A DNA stretch of 64,000 bases, taken from Octopus sinensis (Eukaryota). Below are positions 3,886 through 51,816 of the stretch, in pieces. Within the stretch, counting starts at the first letter, position 1, and every line of letters begins with the position of its first letter. The translations under genes and the position numbers were made by a program. Location of the stretch: assembly GCF_006345805.1 (NCBI RefSeq), contig NC_042997.1, positions 148,614,001 through 148,678,000 of the forward strand, written 5' to 3'. The notes under the pieces are model-generated. The model did no database searches. It had not been told where the DNA came from and saw only the letters and a program-made list of their open reading frames with translations.

Positions 3886-6800
3886 GTATTGAACAGTAAA
3901 GTTGTACAAGAAGACATTTTTGGGATCACGCAATACTTTCATAAGTACTTTCAAAAATTGTGGAAAGGATTCATAAAAATTACGTACGGTAACTACTGAA
4001 ATCTGTCGAATTGTCAAAAATGGTAAAGAAGAAAATAATTCTTTCTGTTGATACATATGTTGCTCTGAAGTTCCCACGGACACACACACACACACATATA
4101 TTTATGTGTATGTGTGTGTGTACACGTGTGTATAGTGCGTGTGCGCATGTGCGTGCATGCATCCGTGCGTGTATATGTGTGTGTCTGCGTGTATTTGTTC
4201 AGGTCTTTTGCGCGCGCCTATGGATAAACTCCCAAGTATAGAACCTTACTAGTAATTCAGCCTCTATAATTGTACGTTACAAAATCTAATGTGTTATTGC
4301 AAGAGTAGCTGTACTTTCCATAGCGTGTTGTCTTCTAAGTGAATGCTCTAGACAAGGAAATTTCAAGACATAGATTAGTGTTCTAGTATTCTTATAAAGA
4401 CTAAACAGTTCTGAATATATTGCATTTATTAAGTTGTATGTAAAATCTATCACGCATTGTCCAGTTCTTTTATTATCAACAGTCACGGACTGGTAAGTAA
4501 ACATAGAATTAATTGAGTAAATTGATTGAAAGCATGCTTATACAGTCATTAGTTTGCTTTCAAAAGTAAGAAAATGAAACTGTAGAGCACGCATTGAAGT
4601 GTTTTCAGATTCATGACGTTTGCTTTTACAATGATGTAAACTAAAGAGCAATCAAACAATTAATTAATGCAAGTAATTAAAATATTCAAAGAAAATAATT
4701 AAGAATTAGAAAACAGTAAGAAAACAAATACGTACTGAGTGACTCTGTATATGTTTTCGATATTTCTTTGTCAATATAATGTTATGAAGTGTCTGAACGT
4801 ATTATAACCGTAAAAAATATATAATTCGAATACCACGAACATAACGGAAATATAGTAAACAATTCTATATTAAATATAATGATTTCTTAATTTCGATTAA
4901 ACATTTTTCTGGTTCATCTCCATTAAAACAGATCACATTTATTTCATCATTATTCCGACATTCCCTGCTGATGTGTTCCATGATGCTTGGAATAAATGTT
5001 ATTTGTTCGCAGTATTTTCTACTCCCATACACCTCCAGGCTAAAGTGCCTTTAAACAAGCGATTAAAAGATTCAACCTATTAAATTGTAAGTCAACACAG
5101 ACCTAAGATAAATAAAAAAGCAATCAGAAGATAATTTCAAATGGTATATTTATTCATTGCATTGATACCATTAACGATACTCCTCAAACGTTCCAAATCC
5201 TACATACTTTCACAGACGATGAGTTATTCAAATATTATTGAAGATGTGAGTTATTTAAGTGCTATTCCAGTTTGTCTTCCAAAATAGCCGTTAAGGCCAT
5301 GTGTGGCTTTCACGTAAAAGGAAATTATGAGATAACATTACTTGGTTACCTTAAGGGGCTCATATGTGATTCATATTTGCAATCATTCAGGTAAAAGAAT
5401 AAACTTTGTTCGACGGAAGTCGTATGGAGCAAGAATTATAAGTAATAAGGGTATGTAATTAAAAATGGACAAAGTAGCGTTTATTGAACCCGCTATAATC
5501 AAATTAATTAAATTCATTAAAATGTAATTAGAGTTAGTGGAATTTAAACTAAAATCTCTTACAGGATTAACTAGCAGTGGGATGATTTTAGATTGTTACA
5601 AAGCAGATATCTGTCATTAACAATATATTAAATTAATTAAATATAAAAGAGTGATAGTTAAATAGATAGTGTCTTATATATTATGGCATGACAATAAGGT
5701 GAACCAAAAAGAAGTTTATATTTCGAAATTGCGTAATTATGTTCACAATTTACAGATATTTGTTTCGGGATATTACTTGCATACCCAAATATAATCATCA
5801 TATTACCCGGCAGAAGTGACACAGCAAAGTTGCAGCAGATTACAGGAGTTCACACCGGAAATTTTGATATTGCAAATAATAGTAAATCAAACGAAGATAA
5901 TTAAAATTTTCAACGCATGGGCAATACCAATATTGAAACAGTGTACAACATTACTTCGAGAAACTAAAAACAAATGAACTGAGGAGGTTTATCGAACAAT
6001 AATCTAAATATGCGTATCGTTGTTAGGAATCTGTACCTATCAAGAAAATAGGGACAGAATGGAATATTTAATACAATATACACGGTACAGTTAACAATTA
6101 TTGAATTCGAGATGTACGTTAACAAATTGAAGAAAAGCGTATTTACGCATCCAGGAAAATAAATACCAAATACAAGATAGCATTAAAACTTTTAGAATCA
6201 AAATAGGAAAATTAGATGTTGAAAAGCATCAAGAAAATATGTTACAGATATAATCTGACAGACAAGCGAAAGGCAAATGGAATAAATGGTCATCTCAGCT
6301 GAAATATGCAGATCTGATGAGAGAAACGAAATCCTGATTAATGATTATTGACGACAAAGAAGGGAAGACAACAATTATTGTTAATATATATAGAGAGAGA
6401 ATATTCAGCAAGATTCTGACAATGGGGCAATTGTCAAAACAGATGGCATTCACTACCCTGTGGAATATAAATGTTGCTATATTACATATGCAGAAGACAG
6501 AGTCACAAAAACGTGAAGATCTGGAAATAGAGATTATAAAATGTGGATATTGAAAAAAGAAACTAATTAACATGACAATAACGAGGATTACATTGTCAAT
6601 AAGAACTACGAAGGCTACCGCGACGATGATGATGATTATATATTGGAAATTGTAAGATAATTTTCTAATAAATATATAATCTTACTGCAGTATCTAAACA
6701 TGCTGCCAGCGAAGTATAGAACTATTGTGCAATGAACAAATTTATATATTAAATATGTTCAGTTTAATACAAAAAGAGTATGCTTCCAGGGGACAGAAAA

Positions 6801-11090: not shown

Positions 11091-11634
11091 AAGGGATTAA
11101 GTCGATTATCGACCCCAGTGCGTAACTGGTACTTAATTTATCGACCCCGAAAGAATGAAAGGCAAAGTCGACCTCGATGGAATTAGAACTCAGAACGTAG
11201 AGGTAGATGAAATACCAATTTCTTTACTACCCACAAGGGACTACACACAGAGGAGACAAACAAGGATAGACACACGGATTAAGTCGATTAAATCGACCCC
11301 AGTGCGTAACTGGTACTCATTTAATCGACCCCGAAAGGATGAAAGGCAAAGTAAACCTCGGCGGAATAAGAACTCAGAACGTAGCGGCAGACGAAATACC
11401 TATTTCTTTACTACCCACAAGGGGCTAAATACAGAGGGGACAAACAAGGACAGACAGACGGATTACGTCGATTATATCGACCCCAGTGCGTAACTGATAC
11501 TCATTTAATCGACCCCGAAAAGATGAAAGGCAAAGTCGACCTCGGCGGAATTTGAACTCACAACGTAACGGCAGACGAAATACGGCTACGCATTTCGCCC
11601 GGCGTGCTAACAATTCTGCCAGCTCGCCGCCTTT
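11091..11634 (-). mobile_element. Nin-domain tRNA SINE with three tandem ~183 bp body units
   Basis: Minus-strand head ggcggcgagctggcagaa, B box gagttcaaattcc, Nin-like gcctttcatcctttcggggtcgat. Units start at 11101, 11283 and 11467. TSD-like TCTGAAT(G/A)CA at 11081-11090 and 11635-11644. Confidence 0.85.
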
Positions 11635-44184: not shown

Positions 44185-44189
<5 letters not shown>

Positions 44190-44606
44190 TCAAAATAAAA
44201 ACATGATGCTAAGAATTCAGCGGTACATATGTTTCGGGCCTTTATGAGACGGATTTATAACAATGCATAATGTGTGTCTATGGCCTTCTTCAGTCGCGCA
44301 CAATTACTATTTCAAGGACATGTATTACATCAAAAATTCTACGTTGGGGATGCAAATCCTCTCAGTCGCTTACGACATAATGTGGCGTACGAAATAATGC
44401 TGGTGCCACATTATGTCGTATGCGACTGAGAGTATTTGCATCCCCAACGTAGAATTTTTGATGTAAGACATGTCCTTGAAGTAGTAACTGTGCGCGGCTG
44501 AAGAAGGCCATAGACACACATTATGCATTGTTATAAATCCGTCTAGTAAAGACCCGAAACATATGTACCGCTGAATTCTTGGCATCATGTTTTTATTTTG
44601 ATTAAT
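44185..44606. repeat. Fold-back inverted repeat (202 bp arms, 18 nt spacer, about 10 mismatches) adjacent to (TA)n
   Basis: 44185-44386 is the ungapped reverse complement of 44405-44606. Confidence 0.95.
44494..44571 (+). ncRNA. Type I hammerhead ribozyme motif (mirror copy on minus strand at 44220-44297)
   Basis: gcgg CTGAAGA aggcca-tagac...gtcta...gaccc GAAA CATATGT a ccgc. Stem III is the palindrome ACATATGT and the triplet is GTA. Confidence 0.8.
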
Positions 44607-44720
44607 TTACTTCACCACATACACCATCAAATGGTATATACAGGTGCTTACAATTATCAAGTACTCACCCTGAAGTTACATATATATATATATCATATAT
44701 ATATATATATATATATAGCA

Positions 44721-44884: not shown

Positions 44885-45215
44885 CCGAAGCCCCATGAGC
44901 GGATTTATTAGACGGAAACTAAAAAAAGCCCTGTCGTATTATGTATATATGTTCATATATACGTGTGTGTCTTTGTGCATGTGCTTGCCCCCTCCCCCAA
45001 AGTGTTTGCTCCCTCCCCACCGATGCCGGTTGAAAACCGGTATTGGTGGGTTTACGTTCCCGTAAAGCAGCAGTTCGAAATAGGGAACGCAAGAATAAGT
45101 ACCAGGCTTAAAAATAAGAGAGAATAAATCATGGTATCGATTTGTTTGACTAAATCCTTTCAAGGTAGTCCTCTCGCATGGCCGCACTAAAATGACAAAA
45201 ATAAGTAAAGGAATA
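44885..45215 (+). mobile_element. 5'-truncated degenerate CORE-like SINE
   Basis: ggatttattagacggaaactaaaaaaagcc...gcatggccgcactaaaatgacaaaaataagtaaagga. Confidence 0.7.
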
Positions 45216-45219
45216 ATAT

Positions 45220-45430
45220 GTGACCTCGTGAATACCGCTGGCGATTTTTTTCCTCTGTCTTCCCTTCTCGGAATCTTTCCTTCTCCTATGTTTCCGACGA
45301 AGAGCTCCGCTCGAAACGTTAAACCCTCCTTCTTCTCTTCTTTCCAGACCGTCCAATAATACTTTATTTGTTCAACGTCCTCGCGTGTTGTTGTGTCTTT
45401 TTTTGTGTCTTCTTGTTTGGATTAACTTTA
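45220..45430 (+). mobile_element. Penelope-like 3' terminal fragment with minimal HHR-like motif (45290-45324)
   Basis: Motif identical to 24621-24655; followed by (TA)n. Confidence 0.7.
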
Positions 45431-45451
45431 TATATATATATATATATATAA

Positions 45452-45524
<73 letters not shown>

Positions 45525-48500
45525 TTATATATAGAGGGCATAATTATATCATACATGCCAGGAGGCATTATATATACCTGCCAACGCTAAGAGGGACAAT
45601 CAGTCATTTCTACCAAAATATTACTAATCCCACCGAATGCAATTTTTCAAAGTAAGACATTTAAATATATAGGCCTGTATCACAGTGATTTTATACTTAC
45701 GTAATCATCAGCAGGCCTGAATGTATTATAAATAAACAACGACCCTGCCTCGCTTAAGCCGAACAGCTAACTGATCAACATCAACGAAGCACGGGGAGTT
45801 TATATATATTACATCCGGGTGAATGGCAAACTTTTACAAAATTGCATTTCGGGAGAGGAAAAGTTTTTCGGAATAAAAATTTTGCAATTAAGGACAACTA
45901 TTAATAAGGAAAACTTAACAAGAAATTGTCAGGTAGATAGCGTAAAAACCTCATAAGAGAAAAAAATTCGAAAATAATTATTCTTATTGAACATATAATT
46001 TATATATAGAGGGCATAATTATACATACATGCCAGGAGGCATTATATATACCTGCCAAACGCTAAGGGGACAATCAGTCATTTCTACCAAAAATATTACT
46101 AATCCCACCGAATGCAATTTTTCAAAGTAAGACATTTAAAAATATATAGGCCGTATCACAGTGATTTCATACTTACGTAATCATCAGCAGGCCTGAATGT
46201 ATTATAAATAAACAACGACCCTGCCTCGCTTAAGCCGAACAGCTAACTGATCAACATCAACGAAGCACATGGGTGAGTTTAATATATATTACATCCGGGT
46301 GAATGGCAAACTTATACAAAATTGCATTCGGGAGAGGAAAAGTTTTTTCGGAATAAAAATTTTGCAATTAAGGACAACTACTTAATAAGGAAAACTTAAC
46401 AAGAAATTGTCAGTAGATAGCGTAAAAACCTCATAAGAGAAAAAATTTCGAAAATAATTATTTCTTATTGAACATATTAATTTATATATAGAGGGCATAA
46501 TTATACATACATGCCAGGAGGCATTATATATACTGCCAAACGCTAAGAGGGACAATCAGTCATTTCTACCAAAAATATTACTAATCCCACCGAATGCAAT
46601 TTTTCAAAGTAAGACATTAAAAATATATAGGCCTGTATCACAGTGATTTCATACTTACGTAATCATCAGCAGGCCTGAATGTATTATAAATAAACAACGC
46701 CCTGCCTCGCTTAAGCCGAACAGCTAACTGATCAACATCAACGAAGCACATGGGTGAGTTTATATATATTACATCCGGGTGAATGGCAAACTTTTACAAA
46801 ATTGCATTTCGGGAGAGGAAAAGTTTTTCGGAATAAAAATTTTGCAATTAAGGACAACTACTTAATAAGGAAAACTTAACAAGAAATTGTCAGGTAGATA
46901 GCGTTAAAACCTCATAAGAGAAAAAAATTCGAAAATAATTATTTCTTATTGAACATATTAATTTATATATAGAGGGCATAATTATACATACATGCCAGGA
47001 GGCATTATATATAACTGCCAAACGCTAAGAGGGACAATCAGTCATTTCTACCAAAAATATTACTAATCCCAACGAATGCAATTTTTCAAAGTAAGACATT
47101 TAAAAATATAGGCCTGTATCACAGTGATTTCATACTTACGTAATCATCAGCAGCCTGAATGTATTATAAATAAACAACGACCCTGCCTCGCTTAAGCCGA
47201 ACAGCTAACTGATCAACATCAACGAAGCACATGGGTGAGTTTATATATTACATCCGGGTGAATGGCAAACTTTTACAAAATTGCATTTCGGGAGAGAAAA
47301 GTTTTTTCGGAATAAAAATTTTGCATTAAGGACAACTACTTAATAAGGAAAACTTAACAAGAAATTGTCAGGTAGATAGCGTAAAAACTCATAAGAGAAA
47401 AAATTTCGAAAATAATTATTTCTTATTGAACATATTAATTTATATATAGAGGGCATAATTATACATACATGCCAGGAGGCATTATATATACCTGCCAAAC
47501 GCTAAGAGGGACAATCAGTCATTTTACCAAAAATTACTAATCCCAACGAATGCAATTTTTCAAAGTAAGACATTTAAAAATATATAGGCCTGTATCACAG
47601 TGATTTCATACTTACGTAATCATCAGCAGGCCTGAATGTATATAAATAAACGACGACCCTGCCTCGCTTAAGCCGAACAGCTAACTGATCAACATCAACG
47701 AAGCACATGGGTGAGTTTATATATATTACATCCGGGTGAATGGCAAACTTTTACAAAATTGCATTTCGGGAGAGGAAAAGATTTTTCGGAATAAAAATTT
47801 TGCAATTAAGGACAACTACTTAATAAGGAAAACTTAACAAGAAATTGTCAGGTAGATAGCGTAAAAACCTCATAAGAGAAAAAATTTCGAAAAATTATTT
47901 CTATTGAACATATTAATTTATATATAGAGGGCATAATTATACATACATGACAGGAGGCATTATATAACCTGCCAAACGCTAAGAGGGACAATCAGTCATT
48001 TCTACCAAAAATATTACTAATCCCACCGAATGCAATTTTTCAAAGTAAGACATTTAAAAATATATAGGCCTGTATCACAGTGATTTCATACTTACGTAAT
48101 CATCAGCAGGCCTGAATGTATTATAAATAAACAACGACCCTGCTCGCTTAAGCCGAACAGCTAACTGATCAACATCAACGAAGCACATGGGTGAGTTTAT
48201 ATATATTACATCCGGGTGAATGGCAAACTTTTACCAAAATTGCATTTCGGGAGAGGAAAAGTTTTTTCGGAATAAAAATTTTGCAATTAAGGACAACTAC
48301 TTAATAAGGAAAACTTAACAAGAAATTGTCAGGAGATAGCGTAAAAACCTCATAAGAGAAAAAATTTCGAAAATAATTATTTTTATTGAACATATTAATT
48401 TATATATAGAGGCATAATTATACATACATGCCAGGAGGCATTATAATACCTGCCAAACGCTAAGAGGGACAATCAGTCATTTCTACCAAAATATTACTAA

Positions 48501-49500
48501 TCCCACCGAATGCAATTTTTCAAAGTAAGACATTTAAAAATATATAGGCCTGTATCACAGTGATTTCATACTTACGTAATCATCAGCAGGCCTGAATGTA
48601 TTATAAATAAAAACATATAATATAAACTCACCCATGTGCTTCGTTGATGTTGATCAGTTAGCTGTCGGCTTAGCGAGGCAGGGTCGTTGTTTATTTATAA
48701 TACATTCAGGCCTGCTGATGATTACGTAAGTATGAAATCACTGTGATACAGGCCTATATATTTTTAAATGTCTTACTTTGAAAAATTGCATTCGGTGGGG
48801 ATTTAGTAATATTTTGGTAGAAATGACTGATTGTCCCTCTTAGCGTTTGGCAGGTATATATAATGCCTCCTGGCATGTATGTATAATTATGCCCTCTATA
48901 TATAAATTAATATGTTCAATAAGAAATAATTATTTTCGAAATTTTTTCTCTTATGAGGTTTTACGCTATCTACCTGACAATTTCTTGTTAAGTTTTCCTA
49001 TTAAGTAGTTGTCCTTAATTGCAAAATTTTTATTCCGAAAAAACTTTTCCTCTCCCGAAATGCAATTGTGATAAGTTTGCCATTCACCCGGATGTAATAT
49101 ATATAAACTCACCCATGTGCTTCGTTGATGTTGATCAGTTAGCTGTTCGGCTTAAGCGAGGCAGGGTCGTGTTTATTTATATACATTCAGGCCTGCTGAT
49201 GATTACGTAAGTATGAAATCACTGTGATACAGGCCTATATATTTTTAATGTCTTACTTTGAAAAATTGCATTCGGTGGGATTAGTAATATTTTGGTAGAA
49301 ATGACTGATTGTCCCTCTTAGCGTTGGCAGGTATATATAATGCCTCCTGGCATGTATGTATAATTATGCCCTCTATATATAAATTAATATGTTCAATAAG
49401 AAATAATTATTTTCGAAATTTTTTCTCTTATGAGGTTTTTACGCTATCTACCTGACAATTTCTTGTTAAGTTTTCCTTATTAAGTAGTTGTCCTTAATTG

Positions 49501-49503
<3 letters not shown>
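45525..49503. mobile_element. Retrozyme-like tandem array: 6 full + 1 partial ~480 bp monomers, then ~1.8 inverted monomers; one HHR per monomer; (TA)n on both flanks
   Basis: Unit marker agag(g)gcataatt at 45533, 46008, 46490, 46971, 47448, 47926 and 48408; orientation flips at ~48615. Confidence 0.92.
48708..48755 (+). ncRNA. Minimal type I hammerhead ribozyme, representative of 9 copies in the array
   Basis: aggcctg CTGATGA t-tac-GTAA-gta-t GAAA TCAC-t-GTGAT a caggcct. Second plus copy at 49189-49236. Minus copies at 45671-45718, 46148-46194, 46629-46676, 47110-47156, 47586-47633, 48066-48113 and 48546-48593. Confidence 0.85.
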
Positions 49504-49535
<32 letters not shown>

Positions 49536-50234: not shown

Positions 50235-51816
50235 GTAATTTAAAAATAATAATAATAATAATGATAATAAAATAATAATAATAACAAGAACAAACATACA
50301 AATATTTAGGGATAAATGAAGGCTCTGGTATTCAGCATGCAAGCATGAAAGAGAAATTCAGGAAGGAATGTTATAGGAGAGTTCGTGCAGTCCTGAATCT
50401 GAACTAAATGCACGTAACAGGTGTTAGCTATAAATTCCTTAGCAGTTCCAGTTGTTACTTATAGCTACAATGTGTTGAACTGGAATATGAGTGAAGTAAA
50501 GAATATAGATAGGAAAATACGCAAGCTGCTGAGTTGTAATAGGATGCCACCACCCAAAGGCAGACGTAGATCGCCTTTACCTTCCCAGAGCCCAAGGAGG
50601 TCGAGGCCTGATCCAATTTGAACTAGCTTACAAAACAACCACAATTGGACTGGCCAAATATCTCGAAATATCGAATGACTGGATGCTAAAGCTCGTGGAA
50701 AATCACGAGAGACGAAAGAAGCTTCATTCTATCATCAAGGGAAAGCAAAAAATTTGCTATTGATCTCGTGCAGGACACCCAAACTGAACAACCCGAGGGA
50801 AGTACGGCAACTATTGTTGCAAAGAAGGTGAAAATGATGGCAATGAAAAAAGCGCACGAGCAATTGGCTGATAGGTGGGAGGAGAAACCTCTGCACGGCA
50901 AATATGTGATCCGCAGCAAACAAGCTGATGTTGACCAGAAGCATACCCATCAGTGGCTACGGAGCTCAGGGCTAAAAGCAGAGAGCGAAGGTTTCATCCT
51001 GGCTGCTCAAGATCAAAGCCTATTAACCCGGAACTACCAGGCCAATGTGATGAAAAATGGAGCAGACCCAAAATGCCGATTCTGCAACGACATGATTGAA
51101 ACAGTGGACCACCTAATCTCTGGATGTAAAGTCTTAGCACCAGTGGAGTATAAATTAAGACATGACAGAGTTGGCCAATATCTCCACTGGCTAATAAGTC
51201 GGCATTACAATATCAAAACTGCCGACAAGTGGTATAATCACCACCCTGAGGCTGTAACTGAAGGAGAAAATGTAACCATTCTGTGGGACTTTCCAGTACA
51301 TACAGACCGAACCATCAAGGCCAATAAACCAGATATTGTTGTGAAAGACCAAAACAATAAAGTTTGCTTATTGATCGACATGAGCATCCCTGTGATCATA
51401 ATATCTCAGCGAAAGAGTTTGACAAGCTCAGAAAATATAAAGACCTACTCATTGAAATTGAGAAAATGTGGCATCTCAAGGCGGTTACAATACCAGTGAT
51501 CGTAGGAGCACTAGGAATGATCAAGAAGGGAACCGAAAATTATATGAGAATGATCCCTGACTTACCATCCCTGCAAGAAGTGCAAAATATTGTCTTAACT
51601 GGTACATCACACGTATTGAGAAGAGCATTGTCGATGTGAGAACTGTTGCTGCTCATGTATTTTAATTTAACTTAAAAAATAAAAAAAATAAAAAATGAAC
51701 GAACTACTGAGTTTGGTTTAATGGCCTACCAATGTATACTATGAGTTTCTTTGCCCTAGGAGTCGGGAAGACACTCGGCAAGAAATGGAAGCAAATTTGA
51801 AAGAAGAAAAAAAAAA

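What the first reader, a model, noticed from the sequence alone, without database searches (positions are those of the whole stretch)
45525..49503. ~4 kb retrozyme-like array: nine hammerhead ribozymes in ~480 bp tandem monomers
Seen: near-identical ~480 bp units, each containing aggcctg-CTGATGA-ttacgtaagtat-GAAA-tcactgtgat-a-caggcct. This gives a 7 bp stem I, an intact core, a 3 bp stem II with a GNRA (GTAA) loop, a palindromic stem III and an AUA cleavage triplet. The units have no ORF and (TA)n lies on both flanks. Established: tandem non-coding repeats with one type I HHR per unit are the architecture of metazoan non-LTR retrozymes and Penelope-like terminal repeats, which self-process multimeric transcripts into monomers or circRNAs. 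Inference: this is a young, possibly undescribed cephalopod retrozyme family producing ~480 nt monomers/circles and mobilised in trans by a Penelope-like RT.
Basis: partly seen in the sequence, partly recalled or inferred. Interest (0 to 1): 0.88.

Follow-up and report, generated by a model that had tools for sequence, protein, structure and literature searches.

The report
Back-to-back hammerhead retrozyme, Penelope footprint
This is one copy of a young, protein-free jumping repeat with a predicted self-cutting RNA motif in each 483-letter unit; its copies across the genome lie back-to-back with two fixed ends in TA microsatellites, so it is likely pasted in by a borrowed Penelope-type enzyme, probably reading round one RNA circle.

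Summary
The array is real but is not one tandem run. It is a head-to-head palindrome: 6.4 units on the minus strand (7 hammerhead motifs) joined to 1.8 units on the plus strand (2 motifs); 6 of 9 motifs are fully intact. Four sister families show compensatory stem changes, so the fold is under selection; cleavage is untested.

Of 39 genomic arrays examined, 32 are two-armed. In 29 of these one arm ends at unit position ~159 and the other at ~279, both in (TA)n; none has two like ends, and the centre varies. Both arms share array-specific variants (31 of 37 sites; shuffled mean 5.9). This matches Penelope-like (PLE) two-site internal priming and favours one monomer template, probably a circle.

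No autonomous partner and no RNA evidence were found. A 5.3-kb Tx1-like LINE inserts site-specifically into this family with an 18-bp duplication.

Verdict: new member of the known non-LTR retrozymes, with a clear mechanistic footprint. This scan has already noted the same kind of element, including the nested retrotransposon, on other DNA of this genome.

The parts
45429..45522 (.). left (TA)n target microsatellite
45523..48611 (-). arm A: 6.4 units in ribozyme sense; 3' end fixed at unit position ~159 (end A) against (TA)n; 5'-truncated at unit position 424
48612..48619 (.). head-to-head junction, 8 unaligned bases
48620..49503 (+). arm B: 1.8 units; 5'-truncated at unit position 353; 3' end fixed at ~276 (end B)
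49385..49503 (+). ~120-nt 'tail' between end A and end B; inferred region between the two RT start sites
49504..49532 (.). right (TA)n target microsatellite
48749..49229 (+). one full unit from predicted cut to predicted cut (481 nt here, ~483-484 in cleaner copies), 33% GC; folds at z -5.7 against shuffles
45671..45718 (-). hammerhead motif 1, core broken (G12A)
46148..46194 (-). hammerhead motif 2, one base missing in the 3' strand of stem I
46629..46676 (-). hammerhead motif 3, intact
47110..47156 (-). hammerhead motif 4, one base missing in the 5' strand of stem I
47586..47633 (-). hammerhead motif 5, intact
48066..48113 (-). hammerhead motif 6, intact
48546..48593 (-). hammerhead motif 7, intact
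48708..48755 (+). hammerhead motif 8, intact; predicted cut after 48748
49189..49236 (+). hammerhead motif 9, intact; predicted cut after 49229
49129..49146 (+). 18-bp site (present in each full unit) that a Tx1-like LINE duplicates when it inserts into other copies of the family; unoccupied in this window

Best explanation
This is a single insertion of a young, non-coding ~483-nt hammerhead repeat with two back-to-back arms and two fixed ends in (TA)n, likely written into the genome by a borrowed Penelope-like (PLE) reverse transcriptase-endonuclease that probably read round one RNA circle. Steps: (1, inferred) arrays are transcribed; the hammerheads, probably working as dimers through the palindromic helix III, cut out monomers that a host ligase closes into circles. 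(2, inferred from the footprint) A PLE protein, probably a dimer, binds the RNA and nicks both strands of a (TA)n tract. (3, ends shown, chemistry inferred) One DNA end primes reverse transcription at internal site A (~159) and the other at site B (~279), not at the ribozyme cut. (4, inferred) Each polymerase runs round the same monomer for a variable number of turns and falls off at a near-random point. (5, junctions shown, repair inferred) The two cDNA ends are joined by short microhomology or a few filler bases, giving the palindrome.
For: Fixed ends: 67 of 71 arms end at A (35) or B (32), and 67 of 71 have (TA)5 within 30 nt. Coupling: 28 of 32 two-armed arrays are A+B, 29 once L054 is read across its LINE insertion; none is A+A or B+B. 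Five further arrays, picked for the LINE rather than the repeat, are also A+B. Centres vary: 12 junctions overlap by 2-14 nt, 3 are flush, 17 have 1-15 filler nt. Only 1 of 71 5' ends lies within 5 nt of the cut site, and 149 of 162 unit junctions at the cut site are exact, so the template is not a cleaved linear monomer. The two arms share minor alleles at 31 of 37 sites in 30 arrays; 10,000 permutations give mean 5.9, max 14. Several alleles are fixed in every covered unit of both arms, e.g. L063 7 of 7, L058 4 of 4, L049 4 of 4. Arms reach 12.8 units. Ribozyme: five of seven stem I pairs change on both sides across four families while pairing is kept, and N7 is the core position that varies among the common motif types. 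Sister families share the two ends. Intact RT+GIY-YIG PLE ORFs in the genome also end in (TA)n at two alternative points. Literature: PLE protein nicks and extends both strands and starts at two internal sites (PMC11167929); inverted truncated copy plus a tail at one end is the PLE hallmark (PMC8557442).
Against: No autonomous PLE with a matching terminal repeat was found in 70 PLE-centred loci. No RNA-level evidence of cleavage or circles. Rfam found no hammerhead, and the MFE fold does not form helix III. Helix II has a U.U base and no loop-loop contact was shown; only 1 of 9 Xenopus retrozyme dimers cleaved in vitro. In the anole PLE, uncleaved RNA was the main substrate. The tail is ~120 nt against 30-40 nt for described PLEs. 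The 39 arrays were the best-scoring of 922 candidates, so they are biased to full units and arm lengths are inflated. Assembly indel noise blurs within-array variation, and a few arrays are mixed (L042, L062). Gene conversion between arms could mimic allele sharing.
Confidence: 0.68

Rival explanations
1. Same PLE enzyme and same two start sites, but the template is an uncleaved linear multimer transcript (one or two molecules from one source locus); the ribozyme is incidental or acts later.
For: For the anole PLE, ribozyme mutants did not affect insertion and unprocessed RNA was the main substrate. This hammerhead looks weak (U.U, short helix III). A young homogeneous source array would also give allele sharing. 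No circle has been observed.
Against: New alleles fixed in all units of both arms imply a one-unit bottleneck. Arms of 10-13 units are hard to sustain under constant 5' truncation. By hand count, at most 4 of 32 arrays have one arm stopping near the other arm's start site, which classical twin priming on one linear RNA would predict.
Confidence: 0.17
2. PLE-type insertion gives short arms; the tandem units then grow and homogenise in DNA by unequal crossing-over and gene conversion, as bioRxiv 10.64898/2026.07.22.740005 suggests for vertebrate retrozymes.
For: Established satellite mechanism; a few arrays are internally mixed (L042, L062).
Against: Copies differ by only about 1% including errors, leaving little time. 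Homogeneity crosses the inversion even in arrays of 3-4 units. Expansion still needs an arm longer than one unit at insertion.
Confidence: 0.1
3. A foldback-type DNA transposon with repetitive terminal inverted repeats, or a long-read fold-back assembly artefact.
For: Palindromic outline; indel-rich copies.
Against: The two termini always differ (A versus B) and the centre differs per locus, with different outer flanks. The family is present in contigs of independent runs. Run X16 shows 7 joints consistent with head-to-head junctions at other positions, though with only 20-27 letters on the short side.
Confidence: 0.03
4. The Tx1-like LINE that targets this repeat is also its mobiliser.
For: Young, intact-looking LINE tightly associated with the family.
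Against: The LINE inserts inside existing A+B arrays with an 18-bp duplication. BLAST of the family unit against 10 LINE-bearing loci hit only the repeat arms, nothing inside the LINE. The head-to-head two-end footprint is described for PLEs.
Confidence: 0.02

Closest known systems
Metazoan non-LTR retrozymes (Cervera and de la Pena 2020, PMC7229834; Li, Clavereau and Pollet, bioRxiv 10.64898/2026.07.22.740005)
   Same: Non-coding tandem units with one type I hammerhead each, GC under 45%, dispersed arrays, highly self-paired unit, coexistence with PLEs; U.U at the base of helix II as in axolotl HHR_Amex2.
   Different: Unit ~483 nt (coral, mussel and axolotl 170-400 nt; the vertebrate survey spans 51-972). 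Head-to-head two-arm insertions with two fixed ends are not described in either paper: 'inverted' 0 times in PMC7229834; 'tail' and 'head-to-head' 0 times in the preprint, 'inverted' only in a reference. 'Cephalopod' occurs 0 times in the first and 'mollus' 0 times in the second. Their supplements were not seen.
EN+ Penelope-like elements (Penelope/Poseidon, Neptune) and their insertion signature (PMC8557442; PMC11167929; PMC4209133)
   Same: Partial tandems, inverted 5'-truncated copy, tail at one end only, AT-rich or (TA)n target, hammerhead upstream of two internal RT start sites.
   Different: No ORF; tail ~120 nt rather than 30-40 nt; many full turns per arm; no sequence match to the PLE terminal repeats sampled here.
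Tx1L in Tx1D (Xenopus; passage in PMC4494074), for the nested LINE
   Same: A two-ORF APE-RT LINE that inserts at a fixed site in a non-autonomous transposon.
   Different: The target here is a retrozyme; the clade was not tested by phylogeny.

Membership tests
Type I hammerhead ribozyme | Core CUGANGA / GAAA / NUH with three helices, open helix I | tested here: met
   6 of 9 window copies intact; the constrained fold scores -10.6 to -11.0 kcal/mol against an MFE of -13.0
Type I hammerhead ribozyme | Covariation in helices; free variation at N7 | tested here: met
   272 motifs from four families; stem I and helix II compensatory changes; N7 = T, C, G or A
Type I hammerhead ribozyme | G10.1-C11.1 pair | tested here: not met
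   U.U in this family and family 2; G-C in families 3 and 4; precedent in axolotl HHR_Amex2, which cleaves
Type I hammerhead ribozyme | Match to an Rfam hammerhead model | tested here: not met
   no hammerhead family among 59 matches at E<=1
Type I hammerhead ribozyme | Self-cleavage | not testable with these tools
   needs in vitro transcription
Non-LTR retrozyme | Non-coding tandem units, one type I hammerhead each, low GC, dispersed copies | tested here: met
   33% GC; 39 arrays scored of 922 candidates
Non-LTR retrozyme | Highly self-paired circular fold | tested here: met
   circular MFE z -8.7 (family 1), -10.7, -5.9, -2.7 (sisters), only 12 shuffles each; linear z -5.7 on 100 shuffles
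Non-LTR retrozyme | Expression as monomeric linear and circular RNA | tested here: inconclusive
   only contigs available; a 511-nt contig in X5 (RNA is a guess) is a closed 481+30 cycle, which a circle or a homogeneous tandem would both give
PLE-mobilised element | Inverted 5'-truncated copy with a tail at one end | tested here: met
   29 of 32 two-armed arrays are A+B
PLE-mobilised element | AT-rich or (TA)n target | tested here: met
   67 of 71 outer ends
PLE-mobilised element | Sequence homology to the terminal repeat of an autonomous PLE | tested here: inconclusive
   no match in 70 PLE-centred loci; only 150 of 5029 and 148 of 5893 candidates were scored
Tx1 clade (nested LINE) | ORF1 zinc knuckle, ORF2 APE-RT-zinc finger, target specificity with duplication | tested here: met
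   Pfam zf-CCHC, Exo_endo_phos, RVT_1, zf-RVT; 18-bp duplication in 9 of 10 loci
Tx1 clade (nested LINE) | RT phylogeny places it in the Tx1 clade | not tested
   no named Tx1 reference in the listed homologues; the label rests on architecture and recall

The most novel reading that the evidence does not exclude
Each array is a frozen record of one PLE protein dimer running two reverse transcriptases round a single ribozyme-made RNA circle from two fixed start sites, one per DNA strand. This would be genomic proof of rolling-circle retrotransposition of animal retrozymes, in a three-level parasite system (PLE helper, circular-RNA retrozyme, and a LINE specialised to insert into the retrozyme).
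Probability: 0.5. Interest if true: 0.75.

Novelty: new member of a known kind. Interest (0 to 1): 0.55.

Why it matters
How animal retrozymes return to the genome is open: PMC7229834 proposes reverse transcription of circles by a LINE or PLE, while the 2026 preprint favours PLE origin followed by local DNA amplification. This family gives near nucleotide-level predictions: two start sites ~120 nt apart, one per strand, a (TA)n target, and one template for both arms. The genome also holds identical copies of intact PLE ORFs that can be tested as helpers. The strict A+B coupling bears on PLE chemistry itself, since it implies the two start sites seen in vitro are used together in one insertion. 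An enzyme that makes multi-turn copies of a small RNA circle at a chosen site would be of biotechnological interest.

Tried and rejected
Rfam scan: no hammerhead hit.

Sequencing-run search: no RNA holder listed; only contigs could be laid, which show presence of the family but not expression, cleavage ends or this locus's own junction.

Partner search: one Pfam accession recalled from memory is not in the library. GIY-YIG and PLE-protein searches found intact PLEs. BLAST of the family units against 50 loci (families 1-3) and 20 loci (families 1-4) found only separate retrozyme insertions nearby, no terminal-repeat match. PLE fragments beside a few arrays looked like shared (TA)n targeting; the 3' flanks of four of them were read by eye without a match.

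Cleaved linear monomer as template: rejected (1 of 71 5' ends at the cut). L1-type twin priming on one linear RNA: not supported (hand count).

L052's inner flank is a different dispersed repeat, not the LINE. One search's stem I tally was mis-registered by 3 nt for families 1 and 2 and was redone. By-sequence and by-words searches of earlier notes gave nothing on a partner.

Literature searches for a cephalopod retrozyme and for this architecture listed no paper describing it; subscription papers, Repbase and Dfam could not be searched.
Full report
1. Observation. The region 45523-49503 holds a 480-bp repeat between two (TA)n tracts. Self-BLAST shows two inverted arms: 45523-48611 on the minus strand (6.4 units, 7 motifs) and 48620-49503 on the plus strand (1.8 units, 2 motifs), joined 5' to 5' by 8 unaligned bases. 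The core pattern occurs 8 times in the array and once elsewhere, against 1.32 expected for the window. Copy 1 has G12A; copies 2 and 4 lack one stem I base; six are intact. Against a unit from L031, the seven full window units show 1-5 substitutions, 4-8 deletions and 0-3 insertions each. This indel excess suggests long-read error (inference), so true divergence is probably under 1%. There is no ORF of 120 aa or more in the array. Positions below count from the base after the predicted cut (window 48749 = 1).

2. The ribozyme. Read directly from the sequence: stem I of 7 bp, CUGAUGA, a U.U mismatch then 3 bp with a GUAA loop, GAAA, palindromic helix III, AUA. Rfam does not detect it and the MFE fold misses helix III. 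Two helix III strands pair with each other at -10.1 kcal/mol while one alone does not fold. This fits the dimeric hammerhead described for metazoan repeats (PMC4209133, passages). Three sister families were found in flanks (L061, L044, L174), 68%, 76% and 52% identical to this one (one unit each). Among 272 motifs, stem I reads AGGCCTG/CAGGCCT, AGTTCTG/CAGAACT, AGTCTTG/CAAGACT and GTTGCA/TGTAAC, so five of seven pairs change on both sides and stay paired. Helix II of family 3 shows a T-A to C-G change, and N7 takes all four bases. The U.U base has a precedent in axolotl HHR_Amex2, which cleaves weakly as a monomer and well as a dimer (PMC7229834). Cleavage here is untested.

3. The family's footprint. 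A genome search scored 39 of 922 candidates; I fetched the 38 arrays outside the window. Of the 39, 32 are two-armed and head-to-head and 7 are single-armed. Of 71 arms, 35 end at ~159 (A), 32 at ~279 (B) and 4 elsewhere; 67 have (TA)5 within 30 nt. Twenty-eight two-armed arrays are A+B. L054 becomes the 29th when read across a LINE insertion. Three keep one odd end (L055, L064, L068), and none is A+A or B+B. All 7 single arms end at A or B, and L059 carries an 18-nt stub of a B arm. Ten LINE-bearing loci fetched for another reason gave five more A+B arrays, L054 again, one single B arm and three cut by the fetch edge. Sister families show the same two ends: 16 of 16 visible ends in family 2, 43 of 45 in family 3 and 32 of 40 in family 4 fall in the two main bins (de-duplicated by flanking context). 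Inner 5' ends are scattered though not quite uniform (KS p 0.014), with 1 of 71 at the cut site; 149 of 162 junctions at the cut site are exact. Centres overlap by 2-14 nt in 12 arrays, are flush in 3 and have 1-15 filler nt in 17.

4. One template for both arms. At variable columns, units in opposite arms of one array differ at 0-4% of pairs, against 8-53% between arrays (six columns). Arm majorities share the minor allele at 31 of 37 sites in 30 arrays; 10,000 permutations give mean 5.9 and maximum 14. The columns were chosen from the same data, and column 105 may reflect an indel. Alleles fixed through every covered unit of both arms include 100C (7 of 7, L063), 260T (4 of 4, L058), 435G (4 of 4, L061) and 99A (4 of 4, L049). 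A mutation arising in one unit of a parent array can only fill a daughter array if one unit is the template, which favours a monomer circle (inference). L042 and L062 are mixed and count against a clean picture.

5. Mechanism. The purified anole PLE protein cleaves and extends both target strands at AT-rich sites, is predicted to be a dimer, and starts cDNA at two internal sites that define the genomic tail (PMC11167929, abstract and main text, parts 1-2 of 4). PLE insertions typically carry an inverted 5'-truncated copy and a 30-40 bp tail at one end (PMC8557442, passages). The footprint here is that signature with a ~120-nt tail and multi-turn arms. Shown: ends, coupling, target, junctions, allele sharing, stem covariation. 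Inferred: transcription, cleavage, circularisation, PLE enzyme, rolling synthesis, microhomology joining. The genome holds intact RT + C-terminal GIY-YIG ORFs. Their CxxC linker suggests the Neptune clade (clade label from the description and recall; no tree built). They end in (TA)n at two points 32 nt (L226/L227) or about 40 nt apart, and one family carries a hammerhead-like motif with the same U.U base. None matched the retrozyme in sequence in 70 loci, so the helper is unidentified.

6. Independent data. Contigs of several public runs hold the family. A 511-nt contig in X5 spans 48817-49324, and these two window ends share the same 30 bases, i.e. a closed 481-nt cycle; the run's RNA status is a guess and a homogeneous tandem would look the same. 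Seven joints in X16 link the two orientations at other positions, with only 20-27 letters on the short side, which is weak support that such junctions are not long-read artefacts. The window's own junction was not bridged.

7. A nested parasite. L054 is interrupted by a two-ORF LINE. Of the 20 best 5'-end matches fetched (40 listed, 157 candidates), 16 directly follow this family's sequence: 13 at the same base (one of them a tandem LINE copy with only the 18-bp target before it) and 3 shifted by 14-18 nt; 4 more diverged copies do not. All 10 full loci fetched hold a 5.26-5.28-kb insert; 9 have an 18-bp duplication and one a longer one. This parallels Tx1L in Tx1D (PMC4494074, passage); the Tx1 label is from architecture and recall. 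An earlier scan note (e1-8807173) gave the lead.

8. Known versus new. Non-LTR retrozymes are an established class (PMC7229834, parts 2-4 of 6 read), with PLE mobilisation of circles proposed but not shown. A 2026 preprint (parts 1-3 of 5 read, plus word search) links them to PLE terminal repeats in vertebrates, samples no mollusc and suggests local DNA amplification. I found no paper on cephalopod retrozymes or on this architecture in retrozymes; the supplements of these papers, Repbase and Dfam were not seen and may hold such a family. That the genome is an octopus comes from earlier scan notes and my recall of a SINE at 11094-11583; I did not test it. My reading was noted before I opened earlier notes, which show the scan has reported the same kind of element several times on other DNA of this genome; these are not independent support.

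9. Verdict. A real, young, dispersed element; a new member of the non-LTR retrozymes; PLE-type mobilisation about 0.9 likely, the full circle model 0.68. Interest 0.55: the class is known, but the footprint makes the mobilisation question testable at specific nucleotides.

Noticed in passing
L269-L278 (e.g. L269:1459-6731); target site equivalent to window 49129-49146: A 5.27-kb Tx1-like LINE (zinc knuckle ORF1; APE-RT-zf ORF2) inserts site-specifically into this retrozyme family with an 18-bp duplication; some copies are in tandem.
   Followed up: yes
L061:365-845, L044:741-1119, L203: Three sister retrozyme families (481, 482, 495 nt; 52-76% identical) with the same two fixed ends and compensated ribozyme stems; 1286, 2064 and 2000 first-look candidates.
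   Followed up: yes
window 44187-44679: Small palindromic element between (TA)n tracts with a hammerhead-like motif in each arm and one arm ~70 nt longer: the same PLE-type layout in an unrelated family; 80% match to L165:6520-6651. The MFE fold did not give the hammerhead.
   Followed up: partly
window 45130-45428: Dispersed repeat ending at the (TA)n into which the array inserted, with a degenerate hammerhead-like core near 45295; similar pieces occur in several PLE loci and beside other arrays.
   Followed up: partly
L161, L163, L226, L227: Intact 775-784 aa PLE ORFs (RT + GIY-YIG), some in identical copies, ending in (TA)n at two alternative points; candidate helpers. The hammerhead-like motif of L227 has G at the cleavage position where L169 has A.
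   Followed up: partly
window 50690-51499: Non-LTR retrotransposon remnant with a weak zf-RVT match, between (TAA)n tracts.
   Followed up: no
window 11094-11583: 184-bp unit in 2.7 tandem copies, recalled as an abundant octopus SINE; not tested.
   Followed up: no
window 6314-6331: Isolated CTGATGA...GAAA match outside the array.
   Followed up: no
39 arrays: Inner 5' ends are under-represented at unit positions 61-240 (KS p 0.014); may reflect selection bias or RNA structure. Some junction overlaps (L045, L053) join segments that are complementary within the unit.
   Followed up: no
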